A DNA stretch of 64,000 nucleotides from a virus, in IMG/VR virus record IMGVR_UViG_3300045988_077625, positions 1-64,000 of that record; one strand, given 5' to 3'. Shown here in pieces: positions 2,521 through 54,603 of the stretch. Positions within the stretch are counted from its first letter, which is position 1. Each line of letters opens with the position of its first letter. The position numbers and the translations under genes were made by a program. Under the pieces are notes generated by a model. It did no database searches, had not been told where the DNA came from, and was given only the letters and a program-made list of their open reading frames with translations.

Positions 2521-3033
2521 ATGGTGATATGTGGATTAGATGCTAGCACGTCATCTACTGGATGGTCTATATTTGATGACGGGAGGCTCATTGCATATGG
2601 TACAATTAAACCCAAAGGGGATGATTGGCATGATAGAGTAATGATGCTTACTATGGAATTATCAAAAATATTTAGACAGTATGAGCCGACGATTCTCTAT
2701 GCTGAGGAAGTACCACTAAAGAAAGGCGCGTCAACTATAGAGAAATTGGGTGCGGTACAAGGCGTGATTTTAGCACTATGCGCTGGCTTCGAGATAAGTC
2801 CATGCTTCTTGATGCCAAGCAAATGGCGTGGCGACCTTAATCTCTTTGACGGCACAAGAGCTGGATTGCAAAGAGATGTTCTGAAGAAAAAAGCCATAGA
2901 GATGGCGAATGAAGAATTTGGACTAAATTTAGCATGGGTTGCCCCAAGTAGCAAAAAAAATGAAGATGATTGCGCAGAGGGAATCCTTGTGGCCTATTCA
3001 CAAATCAAAAAAGGGAGTGTGATGAATGGGTAG
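2521..3033 (+). CDS. ruvC: RuvC-like Holliday junction resolvase
   Basis: N-terminus MVICGLDASTSSTGWS carries a RuvC catalytic-Asp motif. Also has EEVPL and a C-terminal NEDDCAEGIL acidic motif. Length ~170 aa. Confidence 0.7.
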   Translation: MVICGLDASTSSTGWSIFDDGRLIAYGTIKPKGDDWHDRVMMLTMELSKIFRQYEPTILYAEEVPLKKGASTIEKLGAVQGVILALCAGFEISPCFLMPSKWRGDLNLFDGTRAGLQRDVLKKKAIEMANEEFGLNLAWVAPSSKKNEDDCAEGILVAYSQIKKGSVMNG

Positions 3034-3403
3034 ACAATCTCAATATTCAATACTCGTAGACGCTGAACTTAATCTAAAAGATTTAGAGAATCAGCTAAAA
3101 GGACATAAATACAAAATAGATGTTAATAGTTCTAGTGCAAAAAGTGGCGCTAAAAATATGAAAGATGCGTCGGCTTCTGCAAAAGAATTAAAAAACGCTG
3201 GAGACGATTTATCATTAACTTATCAAGTAGCTAATGATGTATTCAGAAGAAGTATTCAAGTCATTTCATCTATGGTTGAACAAGTTAGAGAACTTGATTC
3301 TGCAATAACAGATTTCAAGAAAGTTTCTGACTTGTCCGGTGCGTCATTAGATTCTTATGTAGACAAATTAACAAAGGCAGGTCAAAGTGTCGCAAGAACC
3401 GGT
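3026..3403 (+). CDS. tail tape measure protein, exon 1 (proposed)
   Basis: TMP-type N-terminus (..FKKVSDLSGASLDSYVDKLTKAGQSVARTG). If unspliced, the frame stops at 3449-3451. Confidence 0.6.
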
Positions 3404-3740
3404 AAACCAAATCGGTCTGAGCCGGTATGTACAGATGGTAAATGTGCATAGAGAACAGCCCCTAAACCCTTGAAAGCCTCAAGAGCCTTATCACTACAAC
3501 ATGAGGATGAGATATGCCTGAGTGTGATATATTCATTAGTAATGAACAATTAGTGCGAAAGCAGAAAGACGATAAGGATGATTCCATGGTTGAAAAACCT
3601 AAAGAATCTATCATAAATAATGTATGATAAAAGGGCAGATTGGGCGCGAAGCCGTGATGAGCGGTGTGTCAATCGAATATACAGGGCGACCCTCCAAACA
3701 TATAGGGCGAAGAAATATTCAGGAAGGGCTTGAAAACCCC

Positions 3741-3769
3741 TTGACAAATTATTCAATATGTGCTATAGT
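3741..3769 (+). promoter_or_regulatory. sigma-A type promoter inside the intron
   Basis: TTGACA-17 nt-TATAGT with a TG extended -10 (3761-3762). Confidence 0.6.
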
Positions 3770-3801
3770 GGTATTACAAAATAGCAAAGGAGAGATATCA
3801 C

Positions 3802-4011
3802 ATGACCATTCTTATTTTAGGCGTTGTTTTTTGGGCGGTATGCAAGATGTTTGGTTTTGGATTGAGATGGCTTATTGGTGTTCCTCTCGATGAAAATCTT
3901 GAGAAATTAACAAAGGAATACGATAAGCATAGTCCAGAATATTATCAAGAGCTACAGAGACAGTCCGAAGAAGAACAGAAGCAATATGATGATTGGGGAT
4001 TTATTGAATAA
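3802..4011 (+). CDS. small membrane protein (intron-borne, no endonuclease motifs)
   Basis: AAAGGAGAG RBS at 3786-3794. 69 aa with an N-terminal hydrophobic helix (ILILGVVFWAVCKMFGFGLRWLIGV) and a charged tail. Confidence 0.5.
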   Translation: MTILILGVVFWAVCKMFGFGLRWLIGVPLDENLEKLTKEYDKHSPEYYQELQRQSEEEQKQYDDWGFIE

Positions 4012-4021
4012 TTTGTAACTG

Positions 4022-7000
4022 TCGGATATGGTGTCTGCTGCGGCACAATTTAGAAAATCTGGATTTAATGACCAAGATGCAGCATCGTTGGCGACCGTTG
4101 CTGCAATGTACCAAAACGTAGCTGATACGGCTATTTCAGCAGAAGATGCGGCCGCATCTATTACATCTCAGATTCGTGCATTTGGCGAAGATGCTAGTTT
4201 TGCTACAGAAGTAATTGACGCATATAATGAAGTGGCAAACAATTTTAGTGTAGGCACTAACGATTTATCACAAGCAATGGAAATTGCATCTAGTGGTATG
4301 GCTACTTATGGCAATGAATTTTCTGAAATCATCGGATTGGTCACAGCTGGCACAGAAATTATGACCGGAAGATCATCTCAGGTTGCCAGAGGGCTTAATA
4401 CGATTGCGGCAAGAATTGTAAAAAATAAGTCAGCATTAGCTACATATGGAATACAGGTAGAAGGTGCAAATGGTAAATTAAAAAGCACCTACGATGTTTT
4501 AACGGAATTAAAGCCCAAATGGGATTCAATGAGCGATGCTCAAAAAACTGCTTTGGGCGATACAATAGCTGGTACTAATCAATATAAAGTATTGGCTGCT
4601 GTTATGTCCAATATTAACACAGCAGTTGAAGCAAACGAAACAGCGCTATCCTCTCAAGGCTCAGCGATGAACGAAAACTCCAGATATATGGAGTCTTTTG
4701 AGGCTAAATTGTCAGAAATTGATTCAAAATGGCAATCGTTTTCTAATAATGTTGTAAATAACGACTTTGCTAAATTCTTGATGGATCGTATATCAGACAT
4801 ATTAAGCCTTGCTGATACTGGTTTAGGTCAAGTTATAACACAGATTACATTACTTACATCTCTTGGTTGGGGTGCTACGTCGTTATTAAAAGCGATGAAG
4901 ATTGTTTCTGCCGCAAAAAAGCAATTTGAAACATTTGGCGCTGTGATATCCCTTGTGAGGGAAGGTTCTGGAACTTTTGCAGAAGCTATTTCCGTAGCTG
5001 GTGGTGCTTCTTCAGTAGCTTTACCAGCAATTGCAGCAATAACGGCAGCTATCGTAGTATTGGGTAAGGTTATCCCAGCTGTTGCAAACATGATTGAAGA
5101 AGCGATATATAAAGTATCGTACGAGGGTATGGTTGAAGCTTTTGAAAATGCAACAGAGGAAGCAGATAGATTACAGAATAAGTATGAACAAGCAAAAAAT
5201 AGACTGCAAGATTTAAACGCTACACAATGGGAAGATAGGACACCTGAAATTCAAGCTGAAATTGATCGATTGAATAATTTGATTGCAATCTATAAGACGA
5301 TGGCAGAAGATGCAAACGAAGAAAAAATTAAGGCTGCTAAACAACTATTAGGTGCAGCTGAAAAGAAAGGTGTTACTGTTGGCGTTAAGGCAGTTTATAA
5401 CAAATCGTCTATTGGGCCTCAATTTAAATGGATTGAAGAAGATAAACAAGTTGTTGACGCTTTAAATAAAACATATTTAAGCACAAGAGATGCAATAACC
5501 CAAGTAGGAATTGCGGTTGGTGGAGTAATTCCTGATGTAAAAGATTTATATATGCAATGGGAGAATGCAGAAGAAGGTAGTGAGGAACAAGCTAATGCGT
5601 TAAAGAAGCTAGAATATGCGCTGCTAAATTATAATATTGTCATAAAGGAGAACAAGTTAACAACCGCTGAATTTTATGACGAGTTTGCAAAATTACGAAA
5701 AGGTGTTAATGGTAAAGGCACTGAGTGGGAACATGCCAGATTTACAGAATTGGCAAAATCTTTTAAAGAACAATATGATGCGTATAAACTTTTAAAACAA
5801 GAAGGAAAAGATGTAGACGCAACAGTTGAAAAAACCGTCAAAGAATTTGAAATGATGGCAGCTGTTGATTATATAGTCAGGCATAGTGCGGAATCTACAG
5901 AGCAACAAATACATGGGTTGGCTGAAGCATATGGAATGACGGAAGAACGTGCTGGTGATTTAATTAGAATGAGCGAAGGTCTAGCAAAAGCGTTTACTCA
6001 TGTAGAGCAAGCATCTCAAGATATGTCATTTATCAATGCTCAAATCGGCCTTGCGGAATATGTTGATATGGTGGACAAAGCTATCAATGCTAAAGCAAGA
6101 TTCGATGAGGCAATAGCATCTGGCGGTTTTAATTATTCTTCTGGCTATGAAGGGTTTGCAGACGTATATTCTGAAATGCAAGGATTGCTAGAAGGCAGTC
6201 AAATTGGTGGCGAATTCAGAGTTGGCGCACAACTACTATTCGATGAAAGCACGTATCAAAGCTTTATAGATGCCTTAGAAAATAATCTACCTGAAGCTAT
6301 GCGAATCGCACAAGAAGCTATGGCCAAATTATCGCCCTTGTTTGGTGATGCTAAAAATTCTGGACTTGGCTTTGTCGATACAATGCAGAAACTAGCTGCA
6401 AAGGGCGAATTGGTAGGTGCTACATATAAAGACGTTGATGGGCAAACAGAGATTACTATCACCAATTTAAAAGAATTGGCTGAATCGCTTGGCACTAGTG
6501 AATCCGGTGTGTTTGCTGCAATTCAGGCATGGAAAGAATTCGGCATTAACGCTCAATTAACATCATCTGATTTAATTGGATATTTAAATGACATTGGCGT
6601 AGCAACAGAAAACAACAATATTGACATGAACAGTGTTGTTGAAAAAATGCGTGAGCTTGGAGCTACAGATCAAGATATAATGTCATTGCAGAGCTTATTG
6701 CAGAATATGTCTGACGTTACGCTTCAAAATCCAATTAAGGACATCGACGATTTAAAAGATGAAGCTGGTAATGCTGATGATGCCGCAAACGATGTATATG
6801 ATACATTGCAAGGCATAAAAAGCACGACGTTTAGTCAAGTTCGTACGCAACTAAGTTTGTTGGGCACTGGCTTAGATACTGTTAAGACAAAAGCCAATGA
6901 TGCCGCCGTTGCTGTTGGCAGTGTTGATAGAGCCGCAGGTGGCAATAGAGATCGTACTGGGAATGGCGGCAGAGAGCCAGAAGGCGGAAAATCTGCAAAA

Positions 7001-8218
7001 GGCACAAGAAGCGCTCGTGGCGGTTTGACGTTAGTAAATGAAGAAGGCCCAGAAATTATTCAAGAGAACGGCAAACAACGCATAGCCAATAATGGTTTGC
7101 CAACATTGACCAATATCAAAAAGGGCGCAGTTGTTTATAACGCAAAAGATACAGCTAAAATGACCATGCGTAAAGCTGGTATTAGCGGCTCTGCAACGGT
7201 ATCGTCCTCTTACTTAAACACGTTGTTTAACAATTATGGGCTATCTTCTAGCGGCTCTAGTTACGCATCGTCTGGTAGCTCATCAGGATATTCATCTTCG
7301 CATACATCCTCTGGTTATAGCGGTGGCTCGTCTAGTGATACAGAAGATGCTTGGAAAAAAGAATTTGAAGAATGGTTAAAATGGAAAGACCATCAATTAG
7401 CTATGGATCAAATTACAGAACAAGCATATTATGACGAACTAAACAAAATGAATGAAAAATATTTTGCTAATAGGGCTGAATATTTGGAAGATTATTGGAA
7501 GTATCAAGAGCAAATCTACAAGTGGCAAAAGGAAAAAGAAAAAGACCTTTTAAATCGACAACTTGACGATTTGAAAGAATTAGAAGATGCTATAAATGAA
7601 AAATACGATGCTCAAATAAGCGCACTTGAAGATGAGAACAAAGAGCTAGACGATCAGTTAAAATATGAAGAATTGCTTGAAAATTTAGCTAAGGCAAAAG
7701 CAGAACGAGTCCTTGTCTATAAGGATGGAAGATTCCAATATGTTTCTGGCGGACAAAGCGTATATGATGCACAGGCCGCACTAGATGCTTATAATCGCGA
7801 CAAGGCATTAGAGGCACAGAAGGAAGAAATAGAAAAGCTTAGAGAGAATGAACTTTCTGCTATTTTAGAGCAAGAAGAAAAAATTAACAAGCAATTAGAA
7901 GAACTGTCTGATAACAAGGGCTATGCCAGTGGTTCTTTAGGTGTTCGTGGTGGTCTATCTCTTGTTGGTGAAAATGGTCCTGAGTTGCGTGTATTAAATC
8001 GTGGCGACGGCATTGTTCCTGCTGATGCAACGGCAAATATCATGCGGTGGGCAGGACAAAACCCACGCTCGTTTAAGACCGGACTTTTAAATGAACTACG
8101 GAATAATGTTGGTGGTGTTGTACAACATTTTGAAAATATAACATTGCCAAATGTTACAGACATTATGAGCTTCATGAATGAAATGAAGAGATTAAGCAGA
8201 TACGTATATCAGATGTAG
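4022..8218 (+). CDS. tail tape measure protein, exon 2 (main body)
   Basis: About 1400-aa ORF. Begins with the TMP core (AAQFRKSGFNDQDAASLATVAAMY) and has long coiled-coil regions. The motif GGL(T/S)LV.E.GPE occurs twice. Located downstream of the tail tube gene. Confidence 0.85.
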   Translation, partial: SDMVSAAAQFRKSGFNDQDAASLATVAAMYQNVADTAISAEDAAASITSQIRAFGEDASFATEVIDAYNEVANNFSVGTNDLSQAMEIASSGMATYGNEFSEIIGLVTAGTEIMTGRSSQVARGLNTIAARIVKNKSALATYGIQVEGANGKLKSTYDVLTELKPKWDSMSDAQKTALGDTIAGTNQYKVLAAVMSNINTAVEANETALSSQGSAMNENSRYMESFEAKLSEIDSKWQSFSNNVVNNDFAKFLMDRISDILSLADTGLGQVITQITLLTSLGWGATSLLKAMKIVSAAKKQFETFGAVISLVREGSGTFAEAISVAGGASSVALPAIAAITAAIVVLGKVIPAVANMIEEAIYKVSYEGMVEAFENATEEADRLQNKYEQAKNRLQDLNATQWEDRTPEIQAEIDRLNNLIAIYKTMAEDANEEKIKAAKQLLGAAEKKGVTVGVKAVYNKSSIGPQFKWIEEDKQVVDALNKTYLSTRDAITQVGIAVGGVIPDVKDLYMQWENAEEGSEEQANALKKLEYALLNYNIVIKENKLTTAEFYDEFAKLRKGVNGKGTEWEHARFTELAKSFKEQYDAYKLLKQEGKDVDATVEKTVKEFEMMAAVDYIVRHSAESTEQQIHGLAEAYGMTEERAGDLIRMSEGLAKAFTHVEQASQDMSFINAQIGLAEYVDMVDKAINAKARFDEAIASGGFNYSSGYEGFADVYSEMQGLLEGSQIGGEFRVGAQLLFDESTYQSFIDALENNLPEAMRIAQEAMAKLSPLFGDAKNSGLGFVDTMQKLAAKGELVGATYKDVDGQTEITITNLKELAESLGTSESGVFAAIQAWKEFGINAQLTSSDLIGYLNDIGVATENNNIDMNSVVEKMRELGATDQDIMSLQSLLQNMSDVTLQNPIKDIDDLKDEAGNADDAANDVYDTLQGIKSTTFSQVRTQLSLLGTGLDTVKTKANDAAVAVGSVDRAAGGNRDRTGNGGREPEGGKSAKGTRSARGGLTLVNEEGPEIIQENGKQRIANNGLPTLTNIKKGAVVYNAKDTAKMTMRKAGISGSATVSSSYLNTLFNNYGLSSSGSSYASSGSSSGYSSSHTSSGYSGGSSSDTEDAWKKEFEEWLKWKDHQLAMDQITEQAYYDELNKMNEKYFANRAEYLEDYWKYQEQIYKWQKEKEKDLLNRQLDDLKELEDAINEKYDAQISALEDENKELDDQLKYEELLENLAKAKAERVLVYKDGRFQYVSGGQSVYDAQAALDAYNRDKALEAQKEEIEKLRENELSAILEQEEKINKQLEELSDNKGYASGSLGVRGGLSLVGENGPELRVLNRGDGIVPADATANIMRWAGQNPRSFKTGLLNELRNNVGGVVQHFENITLPNVTDIMSFMNEMKRLSRYVYQM

Positions 8219-53581: not shown

Positions 53582-53665
53582 TGGTGCGGGATAGGGAAGT
53601 CGAATCCCTACGCCTTACGGCAACAGATTTTGAGTCTGCCGTGGCTGCCATTACACCAATCCCGC
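53582..53665 (-). tRNA. tRNA-Leu (anticodon CAA), CCA encoded
   Basis: Hand-folded cloverleaf. Acceptor GCGGGAT/ATCCCGC. Anticodon loop CUCAAAA. Long variable arm GCC-GUAA-GGC. T-arm AGGGA-UUCGACU-UCCCU. Discriminator A73, then CCA. Confidence 0.75.
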
Positions 53666-54527: not shown

Positions 54528-54603
54528 TGGTCGAGGGTAAGTGATTTGAACACTTGTAGCACGATTATAAGTCATGTGGACTAGACCGCTGTCCGAACCC
54601 TCG
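54528..54603 (-). tRNA. tRNA-Ile (anticodon UAU), CCA encoded
   Basis: Hand-folded 76-nt cloverleaf. Acceptor CGAGGGU/ACCCUCG. D-arm GGAC/GUCC. Anticodon stem CAUGA/UCGUG with loop CUUAUAA. T-arm AAGUG-UUCAAAU-CACUU. Confidence 0.7.

What the first reader, a model, noticed from the sequence alone, without database searches (positions are those of the whole stretch)
3404..4021. Tape-measure gene interrupted by a 618-nt insert with readable group I intron pairings
ORF 3026-3451 has a tape-measure N-terminus (..DSYVDKLTKAGQSVARTG) and hits a stop 16 codons later. Tape-measure sequence resumes at 4022 (SDMVSAAAQFRKSGFNDQDAASL..). Joining GGT 3401-3403 to TCG 4022-4024 keeps the frame. The insert shows several group I hallmarks. 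The 5' exon end ACCGGU (3398-3403) pairs with GCCGGU (3421-3426), giving P1 with a U.G wobble exactly at the proposed splice site. The adjacent GUCUGA (3415-3420) pairs with the first six exon-2 bases UCGGAU (4022-4027), giving P10. The last intron base 4021 is G. A 7-bp hairpin at 3427-3449 sits where P2 is expected. GAAA-capped helices lie at 3588-3599 and 3554-3563. I could not trace the P3-P9 core by eye. Introns in tail tape-measure genes are not a standard observation.
Basis: partly seen in the sequence, partly recalled or inferred. Interest (0 to 1): 0.75.

Follow-up and report, generated by a model that had tools for sequence, protein, structure and literature searches.

The report
Group I intron splitting tape-measure gene
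The 618-base insert that splits this phage's tail tape-measure gene is a genuine but divergent group I self-splicing intron that the standard database model misses; such introns in tape-measure genes are already known, but this one carries a small membrane-protein gene with its own promoter instead of the usual homing endonuclease.

Summary
ORF 3026-3451 and ORF 4028-8218 are two exons of one tape-measure protein (TMP) gene, and 3404-4021 is a group I intron.

- **Exon junction:** joining 3403 to 4022 gives ..VARTG|SDMVSAA... This aligns without gaps to uninterrupted TMPs and to empty-site alleles that are 70-75% identical (..VARTGSEMVSAA..).
- **Rfam:** RF00028 does not hit the window copy, even at E<=10.
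- **Relatives:** more than 60 metagenomic relatives carry the same element at the same codon.
- **Covariation:** across 37 distinct sequences, 83 proposed pairs are 91% paired, against 32-43% when the partners are slid. 47 pairs show double changes.
- **Fold:** the pairs trace the full group I fold. This includes P1 (exon/guide covariation), P10, P2, the P3/P7/P8 pseudoknot, a bulged nucleotide next to an invariant G-C in P7, J8/7 GAAGAA and a terminal G in 50 of 50 introns.
- **Link to RF00028:** one relative scores 35.7 bits (E 1e-7), and its helix assignment matches mine.
- **Need for splicing:** in some relatives a 24-nt micro-exon lies between this intron and the next, so splicing must occur.

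TMP introns were described in 2008. The unusual part is the cargo. There is no homing endonuclease; instead there is a conserved sigma-70-type promoter and a variable small membrane protein.

The parts
3026..3403 (+). TMP exon 1 (aa 1-126, ..KAGQSVARTG)
   Evidence: Pfam PF10145 matches the joined protein at 114-258 in one stretch across the junction.
3404..4021 (+). Group I intron, 618 nt
   Evidence: The insert is absent from distant TMPs and from empty-site alleles that are 70-75% identical. It is present at the same codon in more than 60 relatives.
3399..3425 (+). P1: exon end CCGGU 3399-3403 pairs with the internal guide GCCGG 3421-3425. U3403.G3421 sits at the 5' splice site.
   Evidence: helix 1: 98.9% paired, 3 of 5 pairs covary. 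Examples: ACUGGU/GCCAGU in L039, AGCGGU/GCCGC in L071, ACGGGG/CCCCG in L045.
3415..3420 (+). P10 guide GUCUGA, which pairs with the first six exon-2 bases 4022-4027 (UCGGAU)
   Evidence: Compensated in L045 (exon UCUGA with guide UCAGG).
3426..3450 (+). P2 hairpin, 8 bp, with conserved loop GAUGGUAAA
   Evidence: helix 2: 96% paired, 6 of 8 pairs with double changes.
3458..3461 (+). P3 5' strand (GCCC)
   Evidence: Pairs with 3684-3687. helix 3: 4 of 4 pairs covary. The RF00028 alignment of relative L045 places P3 here.
3467..3471 (+). P4 5' strand (CCCUU). In this clade only 3 G-C pairs plus two U.U.
   Evidence: Pairs with 3640-3644. helix 4: 63% paired. Watson-Crick CCAAU/AUUGG in L033. The RF00028 alignment places P4 here.
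3476..3479 (+). P5 5' strand (GCCU)
   Evidence: Pairs with 3633-3636. The pair at alignment columns 83/403 is G-C in 34 sequences, A-U in 2 and U-A in 1 (helix 5).
3486..3628 (+). P5 extension. P5a 3486-3492/3571-3577; P5b 3499-3525; GAAA hairpin 3554-3563; hairpin 3580-3608 containing GGUU-GAAA-AACC 3588-3599 with a tetraloop-receptor-like CAUGG/CCUAAA; hairpin 3610-3628.
   Evidence: helices 6-13. 3482-3527 is 87% identical to the P5 extension of a bona fide RF00028 intron in MT837526. UAUGG/CCUAAG occurs in 15 of 37 relatives.
3633..3644 (+). P5 3' strand (3633-3636), J5/4, P4 3' strand (3640-3644)
3645..3668 (+). P6 (CGC/GUG) and P6a (GCCG-UGAUGAG-CGGU)
   Evidence: helices 14-15: 100% paired. 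P6a has 2 pairs with double changes (GCCG/CGGU versus GUCC/GGAU).
3669..3672 (+). J6/7 (UCAA)
   Evidence: Invariant. Aligned to the RF00028 R element in L045.
3673..3680 (+). P7 5' strand: U3673, bulged C3674, then G3675 AAUAU
   Evidence: Pairs with 3715-3721. The outer pair is U-A in 21 sequences, C-G in 15 and G-C in 1. The G-C and the next A-U are invariant. Variants are GACUAU/AUAGUC, GAACAU/AUGUUC and GAGUAU/GUACUC (helix 16).
3684..3687 (+). P3 3' strand (GGGC). Forms the pseudoknot with P7.
   Evidence: helix 3.
3689..3708 (+). P8 hairpin (ACCCU/AGGGC; A.C in this copy)
   Evidence: helix 17: 3 pairs with double changes.
3709..3714 (+). J8/7 (GAAGAA)
   Evidence: Conserved. Aligned to the RF00028 S element UgAAGAUAUAGUC in L045.
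3715..3721 (+). P7 3' strand (AUAUUC, then A3721)
   Evidence: helix 16.
3724..3742 (+). P9 hairpin (AAGGG/CCCUU)
   Evidence: helix 18: 5 of 5 pairs covary.
3741..3769 (+). Sigma-70-type promoter-like site: TTGACA, 17 nt, TATAGT, with an upstream TG
   Evidence: 11 of 12 matches. TTGAC(A)...TAnnnT is conserved in relatives even where it is displaced from P9.
3786..3792 (+). Ribosome-binding site AAAGGAG, 9 nt before the ATG
3802..4011 (+). Intron cargo ORF, 69 aa. N-terminal hydrophobic helix, charged tail ending ..QYDDWGFIE. Not a homing endonuclease.
   Evidence: No Pfam or PHROG family. Only 5 close homologues in 5.8 billion proteins.
4021..4021 (+). Terminal intron G (omega-G)
   Evidence: G in 50 of 50 distinct introns.
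4022..8218 (+). TMP exon 2 (SDMVSAAAQFRK.. to the stop). The spliced TMP is 1524 aa.

Best explanation
Bases 3404-4021 are a group I intron inside the tail tape-measure gene.

**Proposed mechanism**
- After transcription, the 5' ~340 nt (3404-3742) fold into the group I core.
- The last exon-1 bases pair with the internal guide (P1), with a U.G wobble at the cleavage site.
- P3, P7 and P8 form the pseudoknotted catalytic centre. The guanosine pocket is at the invariant G3675-C3720 pair, next to a bulged nucleotide.
- The P4-P6 stack carries a long P5 extension.
- An external guanosine cleaves after U3403. The guide then aligns exon 2 (P10). The terminal G4021 enters the pocket and the exons are ligated.
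- The result is one 1524-aa TMP reading ..VARTG-SDMVSAA...

**Cargo**
The 3' ~280 nt are cargo. A conserved sigma-70-type promoter and ribosome-binding site drive a small membrane protein (69 aa here). This protein is variable among relatives, and no homing endonuclease is present.

**Shown versus inferred**
- Shown: the insert and its exact boundaries, the conserved fold with covariation, homology to group I introns, and the conservation of the promoter/ORF cassette.
- Inferred: catalysis itself, whether splicing needs no protein, and any function of the cargo.
For: **1. Boundaries**
- The joined protein aligns without gaps to Enterocloster phage TMP.
- Pfam PF10145 spans the junction in one stretch.
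- Empty-site alleles read ..gctcgtactggt|agtgaaatggta.. = VARTG|SEMV.

**2. Same element at the same codon in over 60 IMG/VR contigs**
- Ribozyme part: 88-99% nt identity.
- Flanking exons: 63-78%.
- Cargo: 46-67%.

**3. Covariation**
- 83 pairs, 91.4% paired versus 32-43% when slid.
- 47 pairs with changes on both sides.
- Covariation score 0.366 versus 0.146 in shuffles (0 of 500 shuffles reach it).
- P1, P3, P7, P8 and P9 all covary. P10 also covaries.

**4. Link to RF00028**
- Relative L045 at the same site scores 35.7 bits, E 1.4e-7. Its alignment gives the same P3, P4, P5, P6, P8, P9, R and S elements.
- L033 scores 27.9 bits.

**5. Terminal G** in 50 of 50 introns.

**6. Other inserts in the same TMP genes** score 54-94 bits on RF00028.

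**7. Micro-exon**
In L045, L089, L071 and L069 an exon of about 24 nt (SEMIEATT) lies between this intron and the next. The TMP sequence continues exactly after it (EFRKNGF..). The protein can therefore only be made if both introns are removed.

**8. Shared peripheral domain**
The P5 extension is shared with a 58-bit RF00028 intron.
Against: - RF00028 gives no hit on the window copy, even at E<=10.
- P4 in this clade has only three G-C pairs plus two U.U (helix 4).
- The U.G wobble at the 5' splice site, nearly universal in group I introns, is not kept across the family. Of 37 sequences, 29 have U.G, 4 have G-C, 2 have C-G and 2 have C.A. Of 50 distinct introns, the -1 base is T in 40, C in 6 and G in 4.
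- The window copy has an A.C mismatch in P8 and two G.U pairs in P10.
- No transcript or protein evidence was available. No spliced form of a close relative appeared among the proteins found.
- A conserved Met codon (4028) three codons into exon 2 could in principle start a separate polypeptide.
Confidence: 0.86

Rival explanations
1. The insert is a decayed, splicing-dead intron. The tape-measure function is supplied by two separate polypeptides: 141 aa from 3026-3451, and 1396 aa started at ATG 4028, perhaps by re-initiation after the cargo ORF, which stops 17 nt upstream.
For: There is no RF00028 hit. P4 is weak. There is an A.C in P8. A conserved ATG sits at 4028, and the cargo stop codon at 4009-4011 is just upstream.
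Against: - The ribozyme is the most conserved segment of the locus.
- Its helices are maintained by compensatory changes. These include exon/guide pairs that track synonymous exon changes. Such tracking has no purpose without splicing.
- No Shine-Dalgarno sequence precedes 4028.
- The Met is also conserved in uninterrupted TMPs, so it is an internal residue.
- The junction lies inside one Pfam domain.
- Relatives with a 24-nt micro-exon cannot work without splicing.
Confidence: 0.07
2. The insert is a non-intron cassette (a moron or small mobile element with its own promoter) that landed in the TMP gene. The apparent P1/P10 pairings are coincidental.
For: There is a strong promoter-like site and a small ORF with a ribosome-binding site. 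No homing endonuclease is present. Nothing matched in the phage database.
Against: - The promoter and ORF occupy only the 3' 280 nt.
- The 5' 340 nt are non-coding and highly conserved.
- They fold into a group I topology with 47 covarying pairs.
- They are homologous to RF00028 introns.
Confidence: 0.03
3. It is a true group I intron, but not an autonomous ribozyme. Splicing needs a protein cofactor or is deliberately inefficient, so unspliced RNA yields a 141-aa N-terminal fragment with a role of its own.
For: P4 is weak and the -1 nucleotide varies in the family. The first in-frame stop lies 15 codons into the intron, inside P2.
Against: There is no positive evidence. In many relatives the stop codon is the first intron codon (GGC|TAA), so the 15-codon tail is not conserved.
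Confidence: 0.15

Closest known systems
Group I introns in tape-measure genes of Bacillus cereus-group prophages (TMP-IVS1, 2, 3; Tourasse and Kolsto 2008, PMC2504315)
   Same: They are self-splicing-type group I introns interrupting a siphovirus TMP gene, with several sites per gene. P1 and P10 are adapted to each site. Some copies lack a complete homing endonuclease gene.
   Different: Those introns are subclass IA1 or IA2. This one has no P7.1/P7.2-type insertion between P7 and P3', has a long P5 extension, and falls below the Rfam threshold. It carries a promoter plus a membrane-protein gene rather than an endonuclease or no ORF. The host is an uncultured gut Bacillota-type phage.
Canonical group I ribozymes (Tetrahymena LSU, Azoarcus tRNA-Ile, phage T4 td, Twort). 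The comparison rests on my own knowledge of these structures.
   Same: It has P1 with U.G, P10, omega-G, the P3-P8/P7 pseudoknot and a bulged nucleotide 5' of the guanosine-binding G-C pair in P7. The A-rich junctions around P4 and J8/7 GAAGAA are present. There are GAAA tetraloops and an 11-nt-receptor-like motif.
   Different: P4 is reduced to 3 G-C pairs plus 2 U.U in this clade. The P7 sequence is GAAUAU/AUAUUC instead of GACUA/UAGUC. The wobble at the splice site is replaced by Watson-Crick pairs in some relatives.
Phage T4 introns with their own internal promoters and a 3'-located ORF (the sunY/nrdD intron has its ORF after the core). From my own knowledge.
   Same: The catalytic core lies entirely 5' of the ORF. 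The ORF ends a few nucleotides before the 3' splice site and is expressed from signals inside the intron.
   Different: The T4 ORFs are homing endonucleases (I-TevI, II, III). Here the ORF is a 69-aa membrane protein with no nuclease motif.
Morons (promoter-led accessory genes inserted in phage late operons). From my own knowledge.
   Same: It is a self-contained promoter-RBS-small-ORF cassette inside the structural gene cluster, highly variable between related phages.
   Different: It sits inside an intron within an essential gene rather than between genes. No terminator was found after it.

Membership tests
Group I intron (structural/catalytic class) | Interrupts a gene; precise removal restores the reading frame and a conserved protein | tested here: met
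   Empty-site alleles.
Group I intron (structural/catalytic class) | P1 helix between the 5' exon end and an internal guide sequence, with U.G at the cleavage site | tested here: met
   In the window, 3399-3403 pairs with 3421-3425, with U3403.G3421. The exon and guide strands covary (helix 1). Caveat: 8 of 37 relatives have G-C, C-G or C.A instead of U.G.
Group I intron (structural/catalytic class) | Terminal guanosine (omega-G) and P10 pairing of the guide with the 3' exon | tested here: met
   G4021; G in 50 of 50 introns. P10 is 3415-3420 with 4022-4027, compensated in L045. P10 is absent in the L030 lineage.
Group I intron (structural/catalytic class) | Core topology P3-[P4-P6]-P7-P3'-P8-P7' (pseudoknot), with a bulged nucleotide beside a conserved G-C pair in P7 | tested here: met
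   helices 3, 16 and 17. The outer P7 pair is U-A, C-G or G-C. The G-C and A-U pairs are invariant. The bulge is at 3674.
Group I intron (structural/catalytic class) | P4-P5-P6 domain | tested here: inconclusive
   P5 and P6/P6a are well supported. P4 is only 63% paired (3 G-C plus 2 U.U in the window clade, Watson-Crick in L033). Placement agrees with the RF00028 alignment of L045.
Group I intron (structural/catalytic class) | Conserved R and S core sequences (J6/7-P7 and J8/7-P7') | tested here: met
   In L045, GUCAACAGACUAU and UGAAGAAAUAGUC align to the model's GUUCAaAGACUA and UgAAGAUAUAGUC. The window has the covariant forms GUCAAUCGAAUAU and CGAAGAAAUAUUC.
Group I intron (structural/catalytic class) | Guanosine-initiated self-splicing | not testable with these tools
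   Needs in vitro transcription and a GTP-labelling assay, or RT-PCR.
Rfam RF00028 (Intron_gpI), as an operational family | Score at or above the gathering threshold (50 bits) | tested here: not met
   The window has no hit at gathering or at E<=10. The best relative at this site scores 35.7 bits. The model also finds nothing in L094. That locus holds an insert whose P/Q/R/S-like elements look canonical by eye and a second insert related to this family. The failure therefore probably reflects model coverage.
Mobile group I intron with homing endonuclease | Intron-encoded LAGLIDADG, GIY-YIG, HNH, His-Cys or PD-(D/E)xK endonuclease | tested here: not met
   The only ORF is a 69-aa membrane protein with no family match. 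Neighbouring TMP introns in relatives do carry endonuclease-like ORFs, for example L019 3645-4553.
Subgroup IA (usual class of phage introns) | P7.1/P7.2 helices between P7 and P3' | tested here: not met
   Only 3 nt (3681-3683) separate P7 5' from P3 3'. The related L001 and L094 introns do have such an insertion.

The most novel reading that the evidence does not exclude
This endonuclease-free intron lineage, and at least one other intron lineage at a second TMP site (L094 3664-4364), serve as carriers for an independently transcribed, fast-evolving family of small membrane proteins. These proteins have 1-3 N-terminal transmembrane helices and a C-terminal ..YDN(D/E)[WYF]G[YI]I.. motif, and occur in 1-3 tandem copies. 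The cassette has a conserved sigma-70-type promoter. On this reading the intron is a safe harbour that lets the phage keep an accessory gene inside an essential late gene, because the ribozyme removes it from the TMP message. The accessory gene might act in superinfection exclusion or in another membrane function tied to DNA injection.
Probability: 0.3. Interest if true: 0.6.

Novelty: new member of a known kind. Interest (0 to 1): 0.4.

Why it matters
**Annotation.** Gene callers split this TMP into 141-aa and 1396-aa ORFs. The protein database holds the 141-aa fragment as a separate protein. The correct product is one 1524-aa protein.

**Intron surveys.** A whole clade of gut-phage TMP genes is packed with group I introns, at least four within the first 250 codons in some relatives. 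Rfam RF00028 misses many of them, so intron surveys based on that model under-count phage introns.

**Cargo.** The promoter plus membrane-protein cargo in place of a homing endonuclease is an unusual intron passenger and is worth an experiment.

**Splice-site wobble.** The family tolerates G-C, C-G or C.A in place of the U.G wobble at the splice site. This gives a natural test set for how strict that requirement is.

Tried and rejected
- **Rfam.** Scans of the window at gathering threshold and at E<=10 gave no group I hit.
- **Megablast.** A search of 2900-4600 against phage records gave no match.
- **First pattern scan.** The pattern from the P5 extension missed the window's own family because of a 1-nt indel. 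It found only an unrelated IA-type intron, L004-L010.
- **First P4 assignment.** I first drew P4 as CCCUU (3467-3471) with AAGGG (3631-3635). I rejected this because the overlapping GCC/GGC helix covaries (G-C, U-A, A-U) and because the RF00028 alignment of L045 places P4 and P5 as now given.
- **Hammerhead-like motif.** The CUGAUGAG-like string at about 3655-3662 is the loop of P6a, not a hammerhead core.
- **Other mechanisms.** An intein is excluded by stop codons in all frames of the insert. Ribosomal bypassing is implausible over 618 nt. Group II is excluded because the insert is too short and has the wrong structure.
- **Other copies.** nhmmer with the family profile found no other copy in the window. 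I therefore did not build a covariance model.
- **Host.** The genome-collection scan found only two MAG contigs, one unclassified 'bacterium' MAG and one 'Bacilli bacterium' MAG, so the host remains unknown.
- **Cargo protein.** There is no Pfam or PHROG family, and only 5 near-identical homologues.
- **Spliced transcripts.** No spliced-form protein from a close relative was found in the protein collection. This is uninformative, because the collection is mostly DNA assemblies.
Full report
**What is in the sequence**

ORF 3026-3451 encodes 141 aa. The first 126 aa (..DSYVDKLTKAGQSVARTG) are tape-measure protein (TMP) sequence, followed by 15 unrelated codons and TAG. TMP sequence resumes at 4022 (SDMVSAAAQFRKSGF..), in frame with ORF 4028-8218. 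Joining 3403 to 4022 keeps the frame.

The joined protein aligns without a gap across the junction to the uninterrupted TMP of Enterocloster phage CB473P3 (..VARTADEMVEAATEFKK; 37% identity, E 8e-54). It also aligns to another uninterrupted TMP (..SRTTAEMVSS..). Pfam PF10145 (PhageMin_Tail) matches residues 114-258 of the joined protein in a single stretch spanning the junction. The two ORFs are therefore one gene split by a 618-nt insert.

**Rfam result**

RF00028 does not hit the insert at the gathering threshold, or at E<=10 on 3300-4120 alone. The comparative evidence below shows that the criterion is too strict here.

**Relatives**

A scan with the joined protein, and a scan with a core pattern, recovered more than 60 IMG/VR contigs carrying an insert at exactly the same codon (..R-T/S-G | S-D/E-M-V..). 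The fully delimited inserts are 584-1066 nt long.

- The first ~340 nt are conserved and non-coding.
- The rest is a conserved promoter-like site plus variable small ORFs.
- Compared with the window, relatives in its clade have 63-78% nt identity in the flanking exons and 46-67% in the cargo, but 88-99% in the ribozyme part.

Empty-site alleles also exist. TMP N-terminal gene products that are 70-75% identical read ..GSTVARTGSEMVSAATQFRKSGF.. without interruption. Their DNA is ..gctcgtactggt|agtgaaatggta... This fixes the insert boundaries to within the one position allowed by sequence identity. These alleles encode the Ser with AGT rather than TCN. The TCN codon that pairs with the guide in P10 is seen only in the intron-bearing alleles.

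**Structure**

I aligned 37 sequences (each under 97% identical to the others) and wrote a full group I secondary structure on the window sequence. I then counted pairs.

- 83 pairs are 91.4% paired, against 31.7-43.2% when the 3' partners are slid by 1-3 columns.
- 47 pairs show changes on both sides.
- The covariation score is 0.366 against 0.146 in shuffles (0 of 500 shuffles reach it).

Individual elements:

- **P1** (3399-3403 with 3421-3425). The exon and guide strands covary: ACUGGU/GCCAGU in L039, AGCGGU/GCCGC in L071 and L078, ACGGGG/CCCCG in L045 and L089.
- **P10** (3415-3420 with 4022-4027). It is a perfect UCAGA/UCUGA in most relatives and is compensated to UCUGA/UCAGG in L045.
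- **P2** (3426-3450). Six pairs covary.
- **P3** (3458-3461 with 3684-3687). All four pairs covary. P3 crosses P7, giving the pseudoknot typical of group I introns.
- **P7** (3673, 3675-3680 with 3715-3721).
  - The outer pair appears as U-A, C-G or G-C.
  - Nucleotide 3674 is bulged, followed by an invariant G-C and an invariant A-U.
  - In known group I structures this arrangement forms the guanosine-binding site (my own knowledge).
  - The remaining P7 pairs appear as GAAUAU/AUAUUC, the canonical GACUAU/AUAGUC, GAACAU/AUGUUC or GAGUAU/GUACUC.
- **J8/7** is GAAGAA and **J6/7** is UCAA.
- **P5, P6/P6a, P8 and P9** are supported by compensatory or one-sided consistent changes.
- **P4** is the weak point. 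This clade has three G-C pairs plus two U.U; L033 has the Watson-Crick form CCAAU/AUUGG.
The one at 3588-3599 sits in a UAUGG/CCUAAG-type tetraloop-receptor context in 15 of 37 relatives. The window has the variant CAUGG/CCUAAA.
- **The last intron base** is G in 50 of 50 distinct introns.
- **Thermodynamic folding** of the window copy alone recovers P1, P2, P6/P6a, P7, P8 and parts of P5 (z = -2.25).

**Links to recognised group I introns**

- Relative L045, at the same site but with a canonical P7, scores 35.7 bits on RF00028 (E 1.4e-7 on the local stretch). The model's alignment gives the same P3, P4, P5, P6, P8, P9, R and S assignments that I derived independently. L033 gives a partial hit of 27.9 bits.
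- Bases 3482-3527 are 87% identical to the P5 extension of a 58-bit RF00028 intron in MT837526.
- Other inserts in the same TMP genes of relatives, at about aa 97, 134, 197 and 231-244, score 54-94 bits.
- RF00028 finds nothing in L094. That locus holds an insert whose P/Q/R/S-like elements look canonical by eye, and a second insert related to this family. The model's silence on the window is therefore weak evidence.

**Evidence that splicing is needed**

In L045, L089, L071 and L069 the intron at this site is followed after only about 8 codons (SEMIEATT) by another group I intron. The TMP sequence continues exactly where expected after that (EFRKNGF..). A conserved in-frame 24-nt micro-exon can contribute to the protein only if both flanking introns are removed from the RNA.

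Guide-sequence changes also track synonymous exon changes, and the ribozyme is more conserved than the exons. Together these facts argue that the family is splicing-competent.

**Points against, or unusual**

- The window copy has an A.C in P8, two G.U pairs in P10 and the weak P4.
- Across the family the splice-site U.G is replaced by G-C (4 of 37), C-G (2) or C.A (2), following the third position of the Gly codon. From my own knowledge this is unusual for group I introns.
- There is no RNA or protein evidence.
- The window copy itself has the canonical U3403.G3421.

**Cargo**

Bases 3741-3769 form TTGACA-17-TATAGT with an upstream TG (11 of 12 matches). AAAGGAG lies at 3786-3792. ORF 3802-4011 encodes a 69-aa protein with a hydrophobic N-terminus and a charged tail ending ..QYDDWGFIE. 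Its stop codon is 10 nt before the 3' splice site.

- In relatives the promoter-like site is conserved even where it is displaced from P9.
- The ORFs are 60-110 aa, with 1-3 hydrophobic helices and a shared C-terminal motif..(K/E)YDN(D/E)[WYF]G[YI]I.. or ..NEWGLDDDWRWGKL. There are one to three ORFs per intron.
- They match no Pfam or PHROG family. The window protein has only five close homologues in 5.8 billion proteins.
- The same cassette architecture occurs in a different intron at TMP aa ~218 in L094. There it is TCTTGACA-17-TATAAT, an RBS, and a 101-aa membrane protein ending ..KYDDDLGFNDFNR.
- Neighbouring TMP introns in relatives carry endonuclease-like ORFs, for example L019 3645-4553, which has zinc-finger modules and an ..ICIEYDGGQHY.. 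motif. Co-conversion driven by these neighbours is a plausible route, though only inferred, for the spread of the endonuclease-free intron.

**Comparison with what is known**

Group I introns in TMP genes were described at three sites in Bacillus cereus-group prophages, as subclasses IA1 and IA2, some without a complete endonuclease gene (PMC2504315).

This intron lacks the P7.1/P7.2 insertion of subgroup IA, has a long P5 extension, and scores below the Rfam threshold. I could not assign a subgroup. It is a new member of a known kind. The membrane-protein cargo with its own promoter is the part I did not find described, in two full-text searches, but its function is untested.

**Context**

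The window carries tail genes on the + strand. On the - strand it carries a replication module: ribonucleotide reductase, exonuclease V/Dda-like helicase, RecJ, primase, DnaB and DNA polymerase. There are two tRNA genes. No integrase was seen among the ten ORFs tested. Relatives are 60-114 kb contigs. The only genome-collection hits are two MAG contigs, one labelled only 'bacterium' and one 'Bacilli bacterium'.

**Verdict**

- Confidence is about 0.86 that 3404-4021 is a functional group I intron.
- Interest is moderate (0.4). The kind is known. The value lies in the corrected annotation, the demonstration that RF00028 misses this intron-rich clade, the relaxed splice-site wobble, and the unusual cargo.

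Noticed in passing
window 3741-4011: The intron carries a strong sigma-70-type promoter (TTGACA-17-TATAGT with TG), an RBS and a 69-aa membrane-protein ORF instead of a homing endonuclease. Relatives carry 1-3 diverse ORFs of the same type, with a shared C-terminal ..YDN(D/E)[WYF]G[YI]I.. motif. No known family matches.
   Followed up: partly
L094 3664-4364: A different intron at TMP aa ~218 looks canonical by eye (P/Q/R/S-like elements) but was not confirmed by any model. It carries the same cargo architecture: a promoter, an RBS and a 101-aa membrane protein ending ..KYDDDLGFNDFNR. Rfam cmscan finds nothing in this locus at E<=0.01.
   Followed up: partly
L045 6212-8504 (also L089, L071, L069, L019, L027): TMP genes of relatives are packed with introns, at least four within the first ~250 codons in L045. 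One exon is a 24-nt micro-exon (L045 6828-6851, SEMIEATT) lying between two introns.
   Followed up: partly
alignment A1 columns 10/28 (window 3403/3421): The splice-site U.G wobble is replaced in relatives by G-C (L027, L043, L045, L089), C-G (L013, L021) or C.A (L030, L081). The change tracks the third base of the Gly codon. This is unusual for group I introns.
   Followed up: partly
L012 versus window (exon 1 / intron / exon 2): There is a mosaic boundary at the 5' splice site. Exon 1 is 66% nt identical, while the ribozyme is 98%, the cargo 100% and exon 2 96%. In general the ribozyme (88-99%) is far better conserved than the flanking exons (63-78%).
   Followed up: partly
L094-L096 around 3330-3345: Intron-less alleles encode the Ser after the junction with AGT. 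Intron-bearing alleles always use TCN, which pairs with the guide sequence in P10.
   Followed up: no
L019 3645-4553; L027 2774-2998: The intron at TMP aa ~97 in relatives encodes a 302-aa ORF with CapR/treble-clef zinc-finger modules and an ..ICIEYDGGQHY.. motif, probably a homing endonuclease. L027 keeps only a 74-aa remnant.
   Followed up: partly
L094 about 4398-5898: A ribozyme related to this family (nhmmer 118 bits) sits at a third TMP site (..SQVARG|LN..). It has a P7.1/7.2-like insertion and a 306-aa ORF with no family match.
   Followed up: no
L001 2900-3223 and L004-L010: An RF00028-positive intron (58 bits) sits after a 626-aa tail-fibre-like ORF of other gut phages. It shares the P5-extension sequence with the window intron, which suggests exchange of peripheral domains between intron lineages.
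   Followed up: no
window 53582-53665 and 54528-54603 (- strand): There are two tRNA genes, tRNA-Leu(CAA) and tRNA-Ile(TAT). Rfam reported only the second.
   Followed up: no
window 20900-49300 (- strand): A replication and nucleotide-metabolism module is present: RNR large subunit, exonuclease V/Dda-like helicase, RecJ, primase, DnaB, a 1052-aa DNA polymerase and a radical-SAM protein. No integrase was seen among the 10 ORFs tested, so the phage is probably a large virulent siphovirus.
   Followed up: partly
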